Assembly: GCA_002869165.1 (NCBI GenBank)
Contig: PKTK01000011.1
Coordinates: forward strand, 1-49,593
Origin: Candidatus Parcubacteria bacterium
GTDB taxonomy: Bacteria; Patescibacteriota; Patescibacteriia; Patescibacteriales; UBA12075
DNA length: 49,593 nucleotides
Reading direction: 5' to 3'
Below the pieces are notes generated by a model, which did not search any database, was not told the origin of the DNA, and saw only the letters and a list, made by a program, of their open reading frames with translations. Position numbers and translations under genes: made by a program. The first letter of the stretch is position 1, and each line of letters starts with the position of its first letter. Shown here piece by piece: positions 20,370 through 49,593 of the stretch.

Positions 20370-20443
20370 TCGGGGTGAAAGGATTCGAACCTTCGACCTC
20401 ATGACCCCCAGCCATGCGCGCTAACCAACTACGCTACACCCCG
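20370..20443 (-). tRNA. tRNA-Pro (anticodon GGG); CCA not encoded
   Basis: CGGGGTG/CACCCCG acceptor, TAGCGTAGTTGGTTAGCGC D-arm, CATGG-CTGGGGG-TCATG anticodon arm, GGTTCGAATCC T-arm. Confidence 0.96.
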
Positions 20444-43124: not shown

Positions 43125-43415
43125 TGGGTTCTAATGTGGCTTATATTAGTGTAGCGGATTTTTTTCATCCTCTATAGTTTAAAAATAACACAATAAATAA
43201 TTAATGCAATAGCAATTTGCATGTGGAAAAGTGGATAGCGGTGGATAACTTGTTTCACGTTTCTTGGATCTACAAATTTCTTTATTTTTTATACTTTAAA
43301 TGTTATATTTGAATGGTAAACATGCTTCAGTTTTTAATTTTTAATTTGTAATTTATAATTAAAAATTAAATATTAAAAATTGTTTACAAATAATAAATTA
43401 CAAATTATAAATTCA

Positions 43416-44693
43416 ATGAAAATTGTCGCTGATTTCCACATACATTCAAAATATTCTCGAGCTTGTTCAAAAATTCTTGAACTTAATAATATTGAGACTA
43501 CCTGCAGACAAAAAGGCATCCAACTCATTGGAACTGGAGATTTTACCTACCCTGCTTGGCAAAAATCTATTGAAAACGAACTAGAAGAAATAGCCAATAC
43601 AGGACTTTTTAAACTAAAAGAAGCACTAGATGATCAAGTGAGGTTTATTTTAACTACTGAAGTATCCCTGGTTTACAAAAAAAATGATAAATGTAGACGT
43701 ATTCATATAGTAATTCATGCACCAAACCTAGAAAGTATCCAAGAACTCAATAAACAGCTTGATAAGGACTATAATATTCGCTCTGATGGCCGGCCAATCC
43801 TCGGTATGAGCACAGAAAAACTCATGAAACTGCTTTTTTCTATTAGTCCTGACTTCTTAGTATATCCAGCACACATCTGGACTCCCTGGTATGCTGTTTT
43901 TGGCTCAAAATCAGGCTTTGATTCTATGAAAGAATGCTTTGGTGACTGGACTGATCATGTTTTTGCCTACGAAACAGGCCTTTCTAGTGATCCTGAGATG
44001 AATTGGCGCTTGTCTGGGCTTGATAAACTAACAATGTTGTCTAATTCTGATGCTCACAGCTTACCCAATCTTGCTCGTGAAGCAAATGTTTTCGAGCTAA
44101 AAGAAGCGAGCTATCAAGAAATAAATCAGGTTATCAAAAATAACGCTAATTCTAGCAATGCTAAAGATAATCAATCTTACCTAGACTACACCATTGAATT
44201 CTACCCTGAAGAAGGTATGTATCATTATGACGGACATCGTTCTTGCGATATTAGCTTGCATCCAGACGAAACTAACAAAAACAAAAAAATTTGTCCCAAA
44301 TGTGGCAAGCCATTAATAATTGGCGTAATGAACAGAGTGGATGAACTAGCTGATAGAAAAGAGGGCTACAAATCTGAGAATAAACCAGGTTTCAAAAAAC
44401 TAGTAGAACTAGACAAAATAATAGCAGAAAGTATAGGAGTAAAATCAAGAAACTCCAAAAAGGTCCAAGAAATCTATCAAAACACCCTAGAAATGCTTAA
44501 TTCCACTGAACTAGATATATTATTAAACGTAAATACTGATGATATAGCTAAAATTAGTGGAAAAACCCTGGCAGAGGGTATAAAAAGAGTCAGAAATGGC
44601 CAGCTACACATAAAACCAGGCTATGATGGGGTTTATGGAGAAGTAAAGATATTTAATGCAGAAGAAATAAAAAACCAAAAACAATTATTTTAG
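43416..44693 (+). CDS. PHP-domain endonuclease Q-like protein
   Basis: ADFHIHSKYSRA, GTGDFT, PAHIWTPW, ETGLSSD, NSDAHS, YHYDGHRSC...CPKCG, PGYDGVYG; likely ATG at 43416. Confidence 0.88.
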   Translation: MKIVADFHIHSKYSRACSKILELNNIETTCRQKGIQLIGTGDFTYPAWQKSIENELEEIANTGLFKLKEALDDQVRFILTTEVSLVYKKNDKCRRIHIVIHAPNLESIQELNKQLDKDYNIRSDGRPILGMSTEKLMKLLFSISPDFLVYPAHIWTPWYAVFGSKSGFDSMKECFGDWTDHVFAYETGLSSDPEMNWRLSGLDKLTMLSNSDAHSLPNLAREANVFELKEASYQEINQVIKNNANSSNAKDNQSYLDYTIEFYPEEGMYHYDGHRSCDISLHPDETNKNKKICPKCGKPLIIGVMNRVDELADRKEGYKSENKPGFKKLVELDKIIAESIGVKSRNSKKVQEIYQNTLEMLNSTELDILLNVNTDDIAKISGKTLAEGIKRVRNGQLHIKPGYDGVYGEVKIFNAEEIKNQKQLF

Positions 44694-45687: not shown

Positions 45688-45906
45688 CTATATTTTACAA
45701 TTTTCACAAAGGTCTCCTTTTGAAGGAGATCCGCATTGACTACAGCCTAACATAATATGACCATATATTCCACTATACTGGCCAATACGTTTTTGAATGA
45801 TGGTACTACGACGAACTTTTCTTTGTTTGTCCTGATAGTGGTAAGACCCTTTAGAACCGCTACATTCCTCTCTACAATACACTCTTGTACATTCTTGGCA
45901 AGCCAT
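45688..45906 (-). CDS. Small Cys-rich (zinc-binding-like) protein
   Basis: CQEC...C...C, CSQC, CENC; GGAGG RBS. Confidence 0.7.
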   Translation of the reverse strand: MACQECTRVYCREECSGSKGSYHYQDKQRKVRRSTIIQKRIGQYSGIYGHIMLGCSQCGSPSKGDLCENCKI

Positions 45907-45999
45907 AGGCTAAATCCTCCAAATTTTATTTTATTTATTTTTCCTTTAATATTTCACTTTTATCAAATGAAATATTAGAGAAAAGCGAAGTTTTCTCAT

Positions 46000-46278
46000 T
46001 TATTCCTCCAAAAAATAAAATTTATCATCTACTTTCAAACAATCCCTCATTCCTTCTATCCAAATAAAAGCTTCTGCGTTCTCATAATAATAATTATCCT
46101 CCTCGACAGTTTCTAGTTTTTTAACGCTTTCTTCTTTAACTACGCAGACTCCACAACAAACTTTTCCCATAAAACTCAATTCTCCTTTTTCCCAAGCATT
46201 AATCAGATCTTTCTTATTTCCCTTGAATTCTACTCCATAACTTGCAAACCCAAATTCTTCATCGATGTAAATTTTCAT
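46000..46278 (-). CDS. Hypothetical acidic protein (92 aa)
   Basis: AAGGAGG RBS; bounded by repeats. Confidence 0.75.
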   Translation of the reverse strand: MKIYIDEEFGFASYGVEFKGNKKDLINAWEKGELSFMGKVCCGVCVVKEESVKKLETVEEDNYYYENAEAFIWIEGMRDCLKVDDKFYFLEE

Positions 46279-46470
46279 AATAGCCTCCTTGGCTTTTGTT
46301 TTTTTGTCTTTAATATTCCCTCTAACATTGCACTTAGTATAAATGAAATATTAGAGAAAAGCGAAGTTTTCTCGTTTTGCTTTTGCTTGATCTTCTCATC
46401 CGGTAACGCTCAAGCAAGCATTACTCTGACCACCCAAGAAGTAGGTGCCTAAAAAGGTAAAGTCAAGCTC

Positions 46471-46764
46471 CTAGACCCTGGTGATCAGAAAAGGAGTAAC
46501 ACCGATCTCGAGAATCTCCTCGATGGTGTACTCTTTTCCGAACTCGAGTCGGCCCTTGGGCTTCAAGGCAAGTGCCTCATCATAGCCCTGGCAGACTCCT
46601 CGAGTCTCGGTCGGATCGACACCGATCGCCTTTACGGTCTGGTGACCGCAAAAGTTCTCAGCGTCTACCGCCCAAGCCCGAGCTTCGTCGAGAGAAATCA
46701 CCTTGGCGGTGAAATTTCCCTCTTCGAGGAGCATAGGAGCAGAAAGAATTGCTTTTCTCGTCAT
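46471..46764 (-). CDS. DUF1874/STIV B116-family protein (AcrIII-1-like cA4 ring nuclease)
   Basis: ISLDEARAW...ENFCGHQT (conserved GH), TR, KGRLEFGKEYTIEEI match the family pattern; GGGAGG RBS; visibly GC-richer than its surroundings. Confidence 0.75.
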   Translation of the reverse strand: MTRKAILSAPMLLEEGNFTAKVISLDEARAWAVDAENFCGHQTVKAIGVDPTETRGVCQGYDEALALKPKGRLEFGKEYTIEEILEIGVTPFLITRV

Positions 46765-46923
46765 AGAGCAAGCCTCCCTTCCTTAATTAATTGTCAAATG
46801 TTTATCAAGGAGTGACAATATCTCCTTCCCTCTAGCATCTCACTACTTATAATGAGATATTAGAGAAAAGCGAAGTTTTTTTAATTTTTTTCTTACTGAA
46901 ATTGTAACAATTTAAAGTGTTTT

Positions 46924-47231
46924 GCTCAGGCCGATTGATAAAGTCGGTTTTTCCATATCGCTATCGAGGCACACTTTAGCCCCGCAATCATTCCGCTCCA
47001 ATGCGAGAGCGAACACGGAGATTTGATTGAACTCCCCAATTACCTCAGAATTTTATTCTTTGGTTTTTGGTCAAGACCGTGGATAAATATATGTTATCAA
47101 TTCATATACCATCCCACACCTAGTTTACAATATCTTTAAAACAATACATTGTTTTAAAGTATTGCTGCTACTACAATGGTACTTAACTGTCACCATTTAT
47201 AGCAGTGCTAGGATTTTCACTATTACAACCC
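46924..47231 (-). ncRNA. Candidate structured ncRNA, copy B
   Basis: No ORF of 60 aa or more on the sense strand; shares ordered sequence blocks with copy A. Confidence 0.6.
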
Positions 47232-47320
47232 AATAGCATTTCACAAATAATTTATGAAATATTATCGAGGGGAGACTTTTTCGATTGTCGAAAAAATCTC
47301 CCTAAAATGTGTTTGAAATA

Positions 47321-47640
47321 GCGGGTCCGATTGATGGTCGGTTTGTGCTTGCCTATTTCTTTTTCTTAACGAGGTCACTTTTTTATCCCCGCAATATCCT
47401 TCCTTTGCTTTATTTAATGGCGCAAAGGATTACAGATGGTTAGTCTGCTTGTTGGTTTGGATCGTGGATGCTCGGATCAAGCACCCCCTTGCTTTTTACA
47501 ATATCCCTTGAGGAAAGGAAATATCGCTTCGGGCTCTACGTGGCCCCTTGGAGGAGATCACTACCCCCAACCCATGGCGAGTTACCAACTCACCCCGAAT
47601 CGCTTACGCGACACTTCCGGACAGTCAGAAGATTTTTGGA
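47321..47640 (-). ncRNA. Candidate structured ncRNA, copy A
   Basis: GC-rich hairpins with minus-strand G-U pairs (GGTGAGT/ACTCGCC, GGGTGCTT/GAGCATCC); homologous to copy B. Confidence 0.6.
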
Positions 47641-47726
47641 TTTCTCCTCTAGCATCTCACTACTTATAATGAGATATTAGAGAAAAGCGAAGTTTTCTCT
47701 CTCTACAAAAGCAAAATCTTGCGGAC

Positions 47727-48086
47727 TTATTCATAGCCTGCTAAACATGATGAACATGCTAAATTCAGCTGGCGATGATTAAGATCACGAAGAAAAACAA
47801 TGTCGATTTTATTTAAAATCGCCTTGTCTTTCACTGTGTACCCATAAGATTTTACTTTGACAATCTTTACACGCTTATACAACATGATATATCTTCTTGC
47901 TTTGCAACAATAGAATTTTTTTTCTACTGGTCCAGAAACTGCAAGCGCAATAAAATAAACTGTGTAAAGCTTGTCTTCAAAACGCATAAAATGATCTTTT
48001 ATCCGTTTTGACTTACCAGGATTTTTTAAGATCCTGGCTTCTGCAACATAAAATGGGATACTTCCTATCTTTTTTGCTTTTTCCAT
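47727..48086 (-). CDS. Hypothetical basic protein (about 119 aa; likely start ATG 48086)
   Basis: AAGGGGGA RBS; the longer upstream start would run through a repeat. Confidence 0.7.
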   Translation of the reverse strand: MEKAKKIGSIPFYVAEARILKNPGKSKRIKDHFMRFEDKLYTVYFIALAVSGPVEKKFYCCKARRYIMLYKRVKIVKVKSYGYTVKDKAILNKIDIVFLRDLNHRQLNLACSSCLAGYE

Positions 48087-48228
48087 TTTTGTCCCCCCTT
48101 TTTTCCTGAACATTCCACTTAGAAAAAGCCTGTTTGAGAAAAGCGAAGTTTTCTCGTATTGCATTGATAGTGTCCGCTTATCAGGCGCCCAGGTGCTTCC
48201 CCTGAGTATTACAGGTCAGTTTATATCC

Positions 48229-48423
48229 TCATGACATAGAGGGTTGTTTTTTAAACAGCTTACGAACCCCCAGACCGAGAAACACATACTTTAGTACAAA
48301 GACTAAAACGAATGTGCTGGCTACGATGTTCGGATCGTAACCTACGAACAGAGCACTATTGCTCATATACGTACCGATCCATTGAACAAGGCCAAGCAGC
48401 AGAAAAATTGCAAAGTATAGCAT
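48229..48423 (-). CDS. Small two-TM membrane protein
   Basis: AGGAG RBS; hydrophobic. Confidence 0.65.
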   Translation of the reverse strand: MLYFAIFLLLGLVQWIGTYMSNSALFVGYDPNIVASTFVLVFVLKYVFLGLGVRKLFKKQPSMS

Positions 48424-48455
48424 TTTAGTCTCCTGTAATATGACATTTATTTGTT

Positions 48456-48622
48456 AATTTCCCAAAACTTCGCAAAGGCTTGTTTTATAAATTGCGCACA
48501 ATAAAACTTCGCGGAAAAATTGTGCTAGATATTGTTTATAGAATCTGGAATGCTAAATTTTTATAATTCATTCCTTGTTTCATACAAGCATATCTTGACC
48601 CTTTGCGAAGTTTTGGGAAATT
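48456..48622. repeat. 167-bp element with perfect 23-bp terminal inverted repeats
   Basis: AATTTCCCAAAACTTCGCAAAGG / CCTTTGCGAAGTTTTGGGAAATT; internal AAAACTTCGC at about 48503. Confidence 0.8.
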
Positions 48623-48977
48623 CCACCCTCACCCCTTGGAAGAATTCTTTTTTAATTCTCACCACCCCTCCATCTCCATTCTTCAAACAAGAAGGAATAG
48701 GAAAGGATGATACTCTTAACAAATAATTCTTCAAAAAGGTGAGGGTATTTAATTGTCAATGAACTTTCCGTTCTGCACGACAAGCATGTTTTCAGGATTA
48801 ATTGTTTTAGAATTTAAACTACTTTTGATAATCTTTTTCTATTGACCTTTCCCTTGATTTAATTATTTAGTAGAAAGAATATCTAGAAAATGTTATATAT
48901 TTGTAGTTTTTGTTACCGCAGAGACTTGTGGTCAAAATCCGTAGTTTTTTGCATCAGGCTGTTTAGCTTGATATGTC

Positions 48978-49436: not shown

Positions 49437-49593
49437 CACAGTTAAACCTATAACCAGGAGGTGAGCCATGGGTGGCTAACTAACACCGAAAGGTAAACCA
49501 GTCCCAGAAGTCTTGGGACTGGAACCTAGTAGGAGTTAGAACATCTCATAACATAAGAAGGAGAGACAACAGTGAACGGCTAGAATGTCAAAC

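What the first reader, a model, noticed from the sequence alone, without database searches (positions are those of the whole stretch)
46924..47640. Two diverged tandem copies of a ~250-320-nt structured RNA as array cargo
Both units lack a sense-strand ORF and share ordered blocks on the minus strand: GGGTTG..TAGTGA..TCCT, GCrATAyT..GATATTGTAAA, ATCCACGrTC, ACCAA.AA.CA, ATTGCGGGG.TAAA, GTG..CCTCG.TA and AAACCGAC..ATCAATCGG.CC. Hairpins of different sequence and length separate the blocks, and the two ends can pair. Conserved blocks with variable stems are typical of large structured ncRNAs. From memory, ATCCACG and GGGG.TAAAG resemble raiA-motif RNA blocks, but this is unverified.
Basis: partly seen in the sequence, partly recalled or inferred. 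Interest (0 to 1): 0.8.

Follow-up and report, generated by a model that had tools for sequence, protein, structure and literature searches.

The report
Two gene-less cassettes, candidate structured RNA
Two neighbouring slots of a small gene-cassette array in an uncultured tiny-genome bacterium hold diverged copies of a roughly 300-base non-coding element that looks like a folded RNA, but with only these two copies known this cannot yet be proven.

Summary
On the minus strand, unit A (47231-46917, 315 nt) and unit B (47573-47309, 265 nt) share 11 ordered blocks. Their local alignment scores 117 against 62.5 +/- 8.0 for shuffles. Neither has an ORF of 40 aa or more on that strand.

Two corrections:
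- The units are not tandem copies within one cassette. A diverged copy of the array's own boundary repeat (47232-47305) separates them, so each fills its own slot.
- The raiA likeness fails, and no Rfam 15 family matches.

A protein remnant is unlikely:
- Block spacings differ by -1, 1, 29, 14, 0, 22, -2, -11, 2 and -4 nt.
- There are no Pfam hits.
- The longest frame finds only itself among 5.8 billion proteins.

A folded minus-strand RNA, or single-stranded DNA, is the best reading. Different hairpins sit at the same places, three alignable helices carry G.U pairs on that strand only, and the copies differ in G+C (38% and 46%).

The proof is thin. No third copy was found in any collection searched, single-copy covariance models recover the sister copy only weakly (E 0.23 and 1.5), and no RNA run is listed.

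Verdict: a real and probably functional non-coding cassette cargo of an undescribed family, with its RNA nature unproven.

The parts
46917..47231 (-). Unit A: 315-nt non-coding element, 38.4% G+C, running from GGGTTG to AAACAC.
   Evidence: Blocks located. Length and G+C. Minimum free energy -88.2 kcal/mol, z -3.9 on the minus strand. No minus-strand ORF of 40 aa or more.
47309..47573 (-). Unit B: 265-nt non-coding element, 46.4% G+C, with the same 11 blocks in the same order.
   Evidence: Fold z is -1.65 on the minus strand and +0.38 on the plus strand.
47574..47645 (-). 72-nt leader of cassette B, between boundary repeat 4 and the first shared block. It is 48.6% G+C, has two small hairpins, and has no counterpart in A.
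   Evidence: Read from the sequence. G+C.
47232..47305 (-). Diverged boundary repeat between units B and A. It has a long first hairpin (GGGAGA..TCTCCC) followed by TAATATTTCAT..GTGAAATGCTA, like hairpin 2 of the canonical repeats.
   Evidence: Alignment with the five canonical repeats. 28.6% G+C.
46829..46879 (-). Canonical boundary repeat 3, downstream of unit A in the cassette sense.
47646..47696 (-). Canonical boundary repeat 4, upstream of unit B. It is 100% identical to repeat 3.
46965..46986 (-). Helix CGGGG/CCUCG of unit A with the conserved loop .UAAA..GUG.. The same helix in B lies at 47370-47393. It contains a G.U pair that would be a C.A mismatch on the plus strand.
   Evidence: Fold results and the covariance-model alignment.
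46931..46950 (-). Hairpin CCGA..UCGG of unit A, inside the blocks AAACCGAC / ATCAATCGG. B has it at 47327-47344. Read on the plus strand, the same hairpin is followed by a T-rich run.
   Evidence: Flagged as terminator-like on the plus strand in B.
47124..47165 (-). Hairpin of unit A closed by CAAUA/UAUUG and ending in GAUAUUGUAAA. B has it at about 47495-47527, closed by CGAUA/UAUUG. The upper stems are unrelated in sequence.
47078..47118 (-). Hairpin of unit A closed by GGAU/AUCC and ending in AUCCACG. B has it at about 47463-47486, closed by GGGU/AUCC. The upper stems are unrelated in sequence.
   Evidence: and the sequence read directly.
45944..48165 (-). The whole array: five canonical repeats of about 52 nt (45944-45994, 46320-46370, 46829-46879, 47646-47696, 48115-48165) plus the diverged one. 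The cassettes hold minus-strand ORFs at 46000-46278, 46471-46764 and 47727-48086, and the two non-coding units.

Best explanation
Units A and B are two diverged alleles of one non-coding element. Each is carried as a stand-alone, gene-less cassette in a small repeat-bounded (integron-like) array that has no recombinase gene nearby, in a Patescibacteria (CPR) genome.

The most likely product is a folded RNA of about 265-315 nt, read from the minus strand like the cassette ORFs. Its proposed layout, 5' to 3':
- a 5' segment (GGGUUG..UAGUGA..UCCU);
- a variable hairpin;
- a hairpin closed by C(A/G)AUA/UAUUG and followed by GUAAA;
- a hairpin closed by GG(A/G)U/AUCC;
- a single-stranded ACG(R)UC...ACCAA;
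- two or three variable hairpins;
- the invariant helix CGGGG/CCUCG with a conserved loop;
- the hairpin CCGA/UCGG flanked by GG..CC;
- AAACAC at the 3' end.

Shown:
- The two units are homologous.
- They lack coding signal.
- They show block-and-hairpin anatomy.
- They sit in cassette slots.
- They differ in base composition.

Inferred:
- That they are transcribed.
- That the minus strand is the functional one.
- That the fold is under selection.
- That the RNA acts in trans, as a scaffold, a guide, or possibly a ribozyme or protein partner, like other mobile-element RNAs. No partner protein could be named.
For: 1. Homology: alignment score 117 against 62.5 +/- 8.0 for shuffles, with 11 of 11 anchor blocks in the same order.
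2. Not coding:
- Spacings between blocks differ by -1, 1, 29, 14, 0, 22, -2, -11, 2 and -4 nt.
- There is no minus-strand ORF of 40 aa or more.
- 0 of the 10 longest stop-to-stop frames hit Pfam at E <= 1.
- The 83-aa frame finds only the window's own ORF among 5.8 billion proteins.
3. Constraint:
- Exact runs of 11, 9, 9, 8 and 7 nt lie between segments that are unalignable and differ by up to 29 nt in length.
- These variable segments are 35.6% G+C in A and 46.0% in B, in a genome of about 33.5% G+C. This fits two alleles that evolved in hosts of different composition and kept the same blocks.
4. Structure:
- Hairpins of unrelated sequence occupy the same positions.
- Segment z-scores are -4.3 and -2.6 in A and -3.95 in B.
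5. Strand:
- The invariant helix CGGGG/CCUCG has a central G.U pair.
- The two hairpin bases change from A-U in A to G.U in B. All three would be mismatches on the plus strand (sequence read directly).
- Unit B folds better than its shuffles only on the minus strand.
- A second strain (run X2) carries 47518 G>A, which turns a predicted C-G pair into U.G on the minus strand.
6. Cassette context:
- The repeats are unique to this locus in the genome.
- The same core bounds ORF cassettes in Candidatus Moraniibacteriota genome bins.
- Neighbouring cassettes range from 32% to 49% G+C.
Against: 1. Only two copies exist, so covariation cannot be tested.
2. The crude anchored alignment gives an RNAalifold z of only -1.9 and a structure conservation index of 0.17, against 0.15 on the plus strand.
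3. A covariance model of B's 3' half finds A at 16.7 bits, E 0.23. A model of B's 5' half finds A at 8.5 bits, E 1.5, ranked below one chance hit.
4. Strand evidence is mixed:
- Unit A folds with z -5.6 on the plus strand against -3.9 on the minus.
- G.U pairs in the minimum-energy folds number 16 of 97 (minus) against 6 of 94 (plus) in A, but 9 of 64 against 13 of 81 in B.
- On the plus strand the CCGA/UCGG hairpin is followed by a T-rich run in both units.
5. No convincing sigma-70-type promoter or terminator frames either unit on the minus strand.
6. The X2 variant 47201 A>C would break a predicted pair in A's variable hairpin.
7. No homologue was found anywhere searched.
Confidence: 0.45

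Rival explanations
1. The fold works as single-stranded DNA, not RNA. The units would be complex recombination or replication sites of the cassette system: oversized attC-like sites or a single-strand origin.
For: - G.T pairs are tolerated in ssDNA, so the strand-specific wobble pairs fit equally well.
- The array's own boundary repeats are hairpin sites.
- Weinberg et al. 2017 (PMC5737381, passage read) note that ssDNA and RNA motifs cannot be told apart by sequence analysis, and that a multistem motif recurring in consecutive intergenic regions may be an unusual attC site.
- Earlier notes of this scan describe gene-free hairpin cassettes in CPR arrays. These are leads only.
Against: - At 265-315 nt with seven or more helices, each unit is far larger than the roughly 52-nt boundary repeats that already flank it.
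- The units do not contain the invariant repeat core AAAACTTCGCTTTT.
- No replication or recombinase gene lies within about 8 kb on either side.
Confidence: 0.12
2. The units are regulatory DNA or mRNA leaders: promoter or terminator cassettes, or a long cis-acting leader for the next gene downstream in the cassette sense (46471-46764), with no trans-acting RNA.
For: - ORF-less integron cassettes have been proposed to carry promoters or regulatory RNAs (PMC4909258, passage read).
- Unit A lies upstream, in the minus sense, of the ORF 46471-46764.
- On the plus strand, the CCGA/UCGG hairpin with its T-rich run looks like a terminator in both units.
Against: - A boundary repeat separates each unit from the next gene.
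- Two different 300-nt leaders in series, with 76 nt of conserved blocks between them, is more than a promoter or terminator needs.
- The promoter scan found 12 sites against 7.1 +/- 2.6 in shuffles for the whole 2.9 kb, and none is placed to drive or be driven by the units on the minus strand.
Confidence: 0.15
3. The units are functionless decaying duplicates of a once-coding or once-mobile cassette, and the shared blocks are just what has not yet mutated.
For: - No homologue, no expression data and no significant structural statistic.
- Hairpins are easy to find in AT-rich DNA.
Against: - Neutral decay in one genome should not leave exact 9-11-nt blocks beside segments replaced wholesale. 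Nor should it keep one copy at 46% G+C and the other at 38% in a 33.5% genome.
- No trace of a protein frame or of a known element was found: Pfam, 5.8 billion proteins, Rfam, and the phage and plasmid collections.
Confidence: 0.2
4. The functional strand is the plus strand: an RNA antisense to the cassette ORFs.
For: - Unit A folds with z -5.56 on the plus strand.
- B's plus-strand minimum-energy fold has more pairs, 81 against 64.
- Stop-to-stop frames of 83 and 78 aa lie on the plus strand of B.
Against: - The most conserved helix becomes CGAGG/CCCCG, with an A.C mismatch.
- The two A-U to G.U changes at the hairpin bases become mismatches.
- B's plus-strand fold is no better than its shuffles, z +0.38.
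- The plus-strand frames have no counterpart in A and no homologues.
Confidence: 0.08

Closest known systems
ORF-less integron gene cassettes, including the cassette-borne small RNA of Xanthomonas campestris
   Same: A gene-less unit fills a cassette slot in an array of otherwise protein-coding cassettes. The literature proposes promoters or regulatory RNAs as cargo, and reports one trans-acting cassette sRNA (PMC4909258, passage read).
   Different: - This element is three or more times longer than a typical sRNA (recalled) and multi-helical.
- It is present as two diverged alleles.
- Its array lacks canonical attC sites and an integron integrase.
- The host is a CPR bacterium.
- No Rfam family, whichever cassette sRNAs it holds, matches.
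raiA motif RNA (Rfam RF03072)
   Same: A structured non-coding RNA of a few hundred nucleotides with unknown biochemical function.
   Different: There is no match to the 209-position model at E <= 1 anywhere in the genome or at E <= 10 in the region. This element sits in a mobile cassette in a different phylum.
Large mobile-element-associated ncRNAs (GOLLD, ROOL, HEARO/omega RNA, IS110 bridge RNA; names recalled)
   Same: Ornate folded RNAs carried on mobile DNA, often without an obvious partner gene.
   Different: - None of the 4227 Rfam 15 families matches.
- No nuclease, transposase or recombinase gene is adjacent.
- The size (265-315 nt) is below GOLLD and ROOL (recalled).
DUF1874 motif of Weinberg et al. 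2017 (a relative of the array's boundary repeats, not of the units)
   Same: A multistem motif with highly conserved nucleotides recurs in consecutive intergenic regions with an ORF between copies. No integrase is seen, and it was proposed as an unusual attC site (PMC5737381). One cassette here (46471-46764) gives a weak hit to PF08960, STIV_B116-like, E 5.2e-4 and below the curated cut-off. That this Pfam family is the former DUF1874 is recalled.
   Different: No Rfam match on the repeats at E <= 10. I could not confirm that this motif is in Rfam 15, and the paper's supplementary figure could not be seen.

Membership tests
raiA motif RNA (RF03072) | A match to the family's covariance model at or near its gathering score (101.3 bits). 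| tested here: not met
   No match at E <= 1 in the whole genome. raiA is not among the matches at E <= 10 on 46700-47800 or 45700-48700.
Any Rfam 15 family (ROOL, GOLLD, HEARO, OLE, group I/II introns, riboswitches, RNase P, tmRNA and so on) | A match at the gathering score, or at least a low E-value, to one of the 4227 models. | tested here: not met
   - At gathering score the window's only hit is a tRNA at 20370-20443.
- The best hit on the units is a microRNA model at 22.2 bits, E 0.081, which is chance.
- The wider region gave the same result.
Structured non-coding RNA (generic) | No conserved reading frame. | tested here: met
   Block spacings differ by amounts that are not multiples of 3.
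Structured non-coding RNA (generic) | Statistically supported covariation in the helices across homologues. | tested here: inconclusive
   - Only two sequences exist.
- Hairpins are replaced by unrelated hairpins at the same sites, and three wobble changes are consistent with pairing.
- The alifold z is only -1.9, and cross-detection by covariance model gives E 0.23 and 1.5.
Structured non-coding RNA (generic) | A transcript of defined size and strand. | not testable with these tools
   No RNA run was listed for this DNA. The runs that were laid hold DNA contigs only.
Integron gene cassette | Cassettes bounded by attC sites with inverted core sites RYYYAAC / GTTRRRY (consensus recalled). | tested here: not met
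   The repeats are two-hairpin sites with an invariant core AAAACTTCGCTTTT. Neither consensus occurs in them on either strand, as read.
Integron gene cassette | An IntI-type tyrosine recombinase gene next to the array. | tested here: not met
   - The 8 PF00589 hits in the genome lie at C11:25470-25955 (20 kb away) and on contigs C14, C5 and C1.
- The flanks hold a TIGR00375 PHP-type protein and NrdR on the left.
- On the right, across the contig junction with C10, lie a TrmB-like regulator, ClpP, VanW and Hsp20.
- This is like a cluster of attC sites without an integrase.
Integron gene cassette | An array of co-oriented cassettes of unrelated, compositionally foreign content separated by one family of repeats. 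| tested here: met
   Cassette G+C ranges from 32% to 49%. The same repeat core bounds other ORF cassettes in L103, L105 and L106.

The most novel reading that the evidence does not exclude
The two units are the first sighted members of a new class of ornate RNA of about 300 nt. It travels as a stand-alone, protein-less mobile cassette in integrase-less, non-attC cassette arrays of CPR bacteria, and this array captured it twice from donors of different G+C content. On this reading the cargo that such arrays trade includes self-sufficient functional RNAs (a scaffold, a guide or a ribozyme), not only genes.
Probability: 0.3. Interest if true: 0.7.

Novelty: new variant of a known kind. Interest (0 to 1): 0.45.

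Why it matters
Gene-less cassettes are common in integrons, but almost none has a known product. A large folded RNA exchanged as a cassette would add a new sort of cargo to gene-capture arrays, and would add one more to the short list of big bacterial RNAs of unknown function.

The context also matters. The array has boundary repeats unlike attC and no recombinase nearby, and it sits in a tiny-genome CPR bacterium. This adds to signs that these organisms have their own cassette systems.

As it stands the case rests on two sequences from one locus. It is a lead that one strand-specific RNA experiment, or one deeper metagenome search, could settle.

Tried and rejected
1. Known RNA families. Rfam 15 was run at gathering score on the whole window and at E <= 10 on the region. 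raiA was searched alone over the genome. Nothing matched.

2. Other copies in this genome. blastn of the 746-nt region against G000 gave only itself and short AT-rich matches.

3. Copies elsewhere:
- blastn against phages gave 0 matches. Against plasmids it gave 3 short chance matches of 5-6% coverage.
- blastn in 150 relatives gave only 20-43-nt AT-rich matches.
- Strict two- or three-block patterns gave 0 hits in genome contigs and 0 in metagenome contigs.
- Looser patterns in viral contigs gave 1, 25 and 46 hits. These numbers are as expected by my rough estimate of chance. Of these 72 loci, the 71 were checked by script for the other blocks, and only L035 seemed to carry two further blocks. 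L035 and the single hit both proved to be coding sequence.
- Covariance model R2 (3' half, both units) was run on 150 relatives, 150 genomes of the class and 150 of the phylum. The best foreign hits were 29.5 bits (coding, by inspection) and 21-25 bits (AT-rich, helices broken). None is a homologue.
- R2 was also run on 5 genomes that carry the same array repeat. The best hit was E 0.24.

4. More arrays as hunting ground.
- The exact 20-mer of the repeat gave 7 loci in genome contigs, 7 in metagenome contigs and 0 in viral contigs.
- In 316 genomes of the order, one exact match (G004) and one one-mismatch match (G546) turned up outside this genome.
- A block scan of the 14 fetched loci showed no unit-like element. 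G004's locus L151 was read and scanned only for the repeat core, and G546's place was not fetched.

5. Expression. No RNA holder is listed for this DNA. The laid DNA contigs show no joints or cassette gain or loss.

6. Protein remnant. Rejected.

7. Nearby enzyme as partner. The 437-aa ORF 43380-44693 is a TIGR00375 PHP-type protein, not a TnpB-, IscB- or recombinase-type protein.

8. Structure statistics. The mid-gap anchored alignment with RNAalifold was not significant. Single-sequence covariance models gave weak cross-detection.

9. Earlier notes of this scan. By sequence and by place in relatives, nothing alike was found.

10. Print. Four full-text searches on integron/attC/Patescibacteria, on cassette/structured RNA, on CPR/structured RNA and on noncoding cassettes found no description of this element. 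Supplementary files of PMC5737381, which hold the motif drawings, could not be seen.

Full report
**Setting**

The window is the whole contig C11 of a 1.43-Mb, 15-contig genome of about 33.5% G+C. Its relatives are small-genome Patescibacteria.

Near the right end lies an array of five repeats of about 52 nt. They share the exact 17-mer GAGAAAAGCGAAGTTTT on the plus strand, at 45944-45994, 46320-46370, 46829-46879, 47646-47696 and 48115-48165. Shuffles give a mean of 0.31 matches against the 5 found. The array is unique in the genome.

Between the repeats lie small minus-strand ORFs: 46000-46278, 46471-46764 and 47727-48086. One 766-nt interval, 46880-47645, has no minus-strand ORF of 40 aa or more. 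That interval is the finding.

**The observation**

On the minus strand, unit A runs from 47231 to 46917 (315 nt) and unit B from 47573 to 47309 (265 nt). Both contain, in the same order:
- GGGTTG, TAGTGA, TCCT
- GATATTGTAAA
- ATCCACG(R)TC
- ACCAA
- ATTGCGGGG.TAAA
- CCTCG
- AAACCGAC
- ATCAATCGG
- AAACAC

A local alignment scores 117. Two hundred shuffles of B gave 62.5 +/- 8.0 with a maximum of 91.5, and reversed or reverse-complemented B gave 59. The two units are therefore homologous.

Between the blocks the sequences cannot be aligned and differ in length by -1, 1, 29, 14, 0, 22, -2, -11, 2 and -4 nt.

**A correction to the anatomy**

The 74 nt between the units (47232-47305) align with the canonical repeats. 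They share an exact 11-mer, TAATATTTCAT, then a 9-nt loop, then GTG.AATG.TA..GGG. The short first hairpin of the repeat (GAGAAAA/TTTTCTC) is replaced by a longer one (GGGAGA...TCTCCC). Each unit therefore fills its own cassette slot, and the pair is two neighbouring cassettes, not a tandem duplication inside one. Unit B also has a 72-nt leader (47574-47645) with no counterpart in A.

**Not a protein remnant**

- The spacing differences above are mostly not multiples of three.
- The frames that cover shared blocks differ between A and B.
- None of the ten longest stop-to-stop frames hits Pfam at E <= 1.
- The longest frame (83 aa, plus strand of B) finds only the window's own ORF among 5.8 billion clustered proteins.

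**Not a known RNA**

- Rfam 15 gives only a tRNA, elsewhere in the window, at gathering score.
- On the region it gives nothing better than chance microRNA matches at E <= 10.

**Evidence for a fold**

Both units fold into a string of hairpins. Four helices have arms lying in or beside shared blocks, so they can be compared directly:
1. CGGGG/CCUCG is identical in both units and has a central G.U pair.
2. CCGA/UCGG is identical in both and is flanked by GG..CC across an asymmetric loop.
3. The hairpin that ends in GAUAUUGUAAA is closed by CAAUA/UAUUG in A and CGAUA/UAUUG in B. Its upper stems are unrelated: 16 bp in A and 12 bp in B.
4. The hairpin that ends in AUCCACG is closed by GGAU/AUCC in A and GGGU/AUCC in B, again with unrelated upper stems.

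The long variable stretches also fold into hairpins. From TCCT to GATATTGTAAA the z-scores are -4.3 in A and 0.1 in B. From ACCAA to ATTGCGGGG they are -2.6 in A and -3.95 in B. That second stretch holds three hairpins in A and two in B.

The G.U pair in helix 1, and the A-U to G.U changes in helices 3 and 4, would all be mismatches on the plus strand.

A related strain in a second run carries 47518 G>A. That turns a predicted C-G pair of B into U.G on the minus strand. It also carries 47540 G>A in a loop and 47201 A>C, which would break a pair in A's variable hairpin. Each variant comes from one contig at depth 3.6-5.3.

**Composition argues for constraint**

The variable segments are 35.6% G+C in A and 46.0% in B. 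The 5' halves are 31% and 53%. Two copies drifting in one 33.5% genome should not differ like this while keeping exact blocks of 7-11 nt. The simplest reading is two alleles that evolved in different hosts and were captured separately. That implies the blocks are under selection. Neighbouring cassettes also range from 32% to 49% G+C.

**Limits of the structural case**

- With two sequences no covariation statistic is valid.
- A neutral, anchor-based alignment gave an RNAalifold energy only 1.9 sd below column shuffles. The structure conservation index was 0.17 on the minus strand and 0.15 on the plus.
- A covariance model built from B's 3' half alone found A's 3' half in exact register, as the best non-self hit in the window, but at only 16.7 bits, E 0.23. 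The E-value was 0.0042 within the 901-nt region.
- A model of B's 5' half found A only at 8.5 bits, E 1.5, ranked third and partly out of register.
- Strand evidence is mixed:
  - Unit A folds with z -3.9 on the minus strand and -5.6 on the plus. Unit B gives -1.65 and +0.38.
  - G.U counts in the minimum-energy folds favour the minus strand in A (16 of 97 against 6 of 94) but not in B (9 of 64 against 13 of 81).
  - On the plus strand the CCGA/UCGG hairpin is followed by a T-rich run in both units.

**Search for more copies**

None was found. The searches, listed in full under Tried and rejected, covered:
- this genome;
- phage and plasmid collections;
- 150 relatives by blastn;
- viral, genome and metagenome collections by block patterns;
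- 450 Patescibacteria genomes, plus 5 genomes with the same array repeat, by covariance model R2.

These searches need either exact blocks or likeness to two sequences, so distant relatives could have been missed. No RNA-seq run holds this DNA.

**The array**

The repeat core AAAACTTCGCTTTT is invariant in 17 of 17 copies aligned from 8 sources. These sources include three Candidatus Moraniibacteriota genome bins and contigs binned to other phyla. In L105 each of the cassettes holds an ORF on the strand opposite to the typed core, as it does here.

Each repeat has two hairpins that share a CTC/GAG triplet. The second hairpin varies in sequence while keeping its pairing, for example CTCC../..GGAG in L104 against CTCT../..AGAG elsewhere. 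The repeats lack the attC core consensus (recalled).

No tyrosine recombinase gene is near. The genome's 8 PF00589 hits lie 20 kb away or on other contigs.
- The left flank holds a TIGR00375 PHP-type protein and NrdR.
- The right end of C11 overlaps the end of contig C10 by 99 nt. The next 8 kb there encode a TrmB-like regulator, ClpP, VanW and Hsp20.

The array thus resembles an integrase-less cluster of recombination sites. Weinberg et al. (PMC5737381, passage read) described a comparable multistem motif in consecutive intergenic regions and proposed an unusual attC.

ORF-less cassettes are well known in integrons. They have been proposed to carry promoters or regulatory RNAs, and one cassette-borne sRNA has been reported (PMC4909258, passage read).

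**Verdict**

The feature is real and non-coding, is present as two diverged alleles in separate cassette slots, and is probably functional. My estimates for what it is:
- a folded minus-strand RNA of a new family: about 0.45;
- decaying duplicates: 0.2;
- a regulatory or leader role: 0.15;
- a fold that works as ssDNA: 0.12;
- a plus-strand RNA: 0.08.

It is not raiA or any Rfam family.

Noticed in passing
window 48456-48622: Just upstream of the array, in the cassette sense, lie three more copies of the repeat's 10-mer core GCGAAGTTTT: one direct at 48605 and two inverted at 48464 and 48503. Two of them sit in a perfect 23-nt inverted repeat (48456-48478 / 48600-48622) with 121 nt between the arms. 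Eight of the genome's 13 copies of the 10-mer lie in 45985-48605. This may be the array's docking (attI-like) site or an invertible segment.
   Followed up: partly
window 46471-46764 (-): This 97-aa cassette ORF lies in a cassette of 49% G+C (up to 57% in 200-nt windows) within a 33.5% genome. It gives a weak match to PF08960 (STIV_B116-like), E 5.2e-4 and 20.5 bits against a cut-off of 26. That this family includes viral ring nucleases acting against type III CRISPR signalling is recalled.
   Followed up: no
L101, L103/L108, L104/L110, L105, L106, L107/L114, L113: The same repeat core, followed by a variable hairpin, bounds ORF cassettes in three Candidatus Moraniibacteriota genome bins. It also occurs in short AT-rich contigs binned as Micavibrio, Bdellovibrionales and Gammaproteobacteria, so either the system crosses phyla or those contigs are mis-binned.
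   Followed up: partly
L105:2316-2382 and L106:5210-5276: In two different genome bins the second hairpin of the repeat is replaced by GTCATTCC(T/C)GCG(T/A)AGGC(A/G)GGAATC. The stem change between the two is compensatory (T..A against C..G).
   Followed up: no
window 49495-49593 and G000:C10 end (L154): The last 99 nt of this contig overlap the reverse complement of the end of contig C10, so the two contigs probably join there. A public-run contig also runs about 19 kb beyond the window's end.
   Followed up: yes
G000:C5 (394-915, 6618-7118, 9320-9838, 10512-11021, 30210-30728): Five of the genome's eight tyrosine-recombinase matches lie on one 67-kb contig, which also has the highest G+C (35.9%). 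It may be a mobile element or a recombinase-rich island.
   Followed up: no
window 43380-44693 (+): This 437-aa protein matches TIGR00375 (E 1.7e-50, below the curated cut-off). It is a PHP-type protein with a zinc ribbon. That it is like endonuclease Q is recalled.
   Followed up: no
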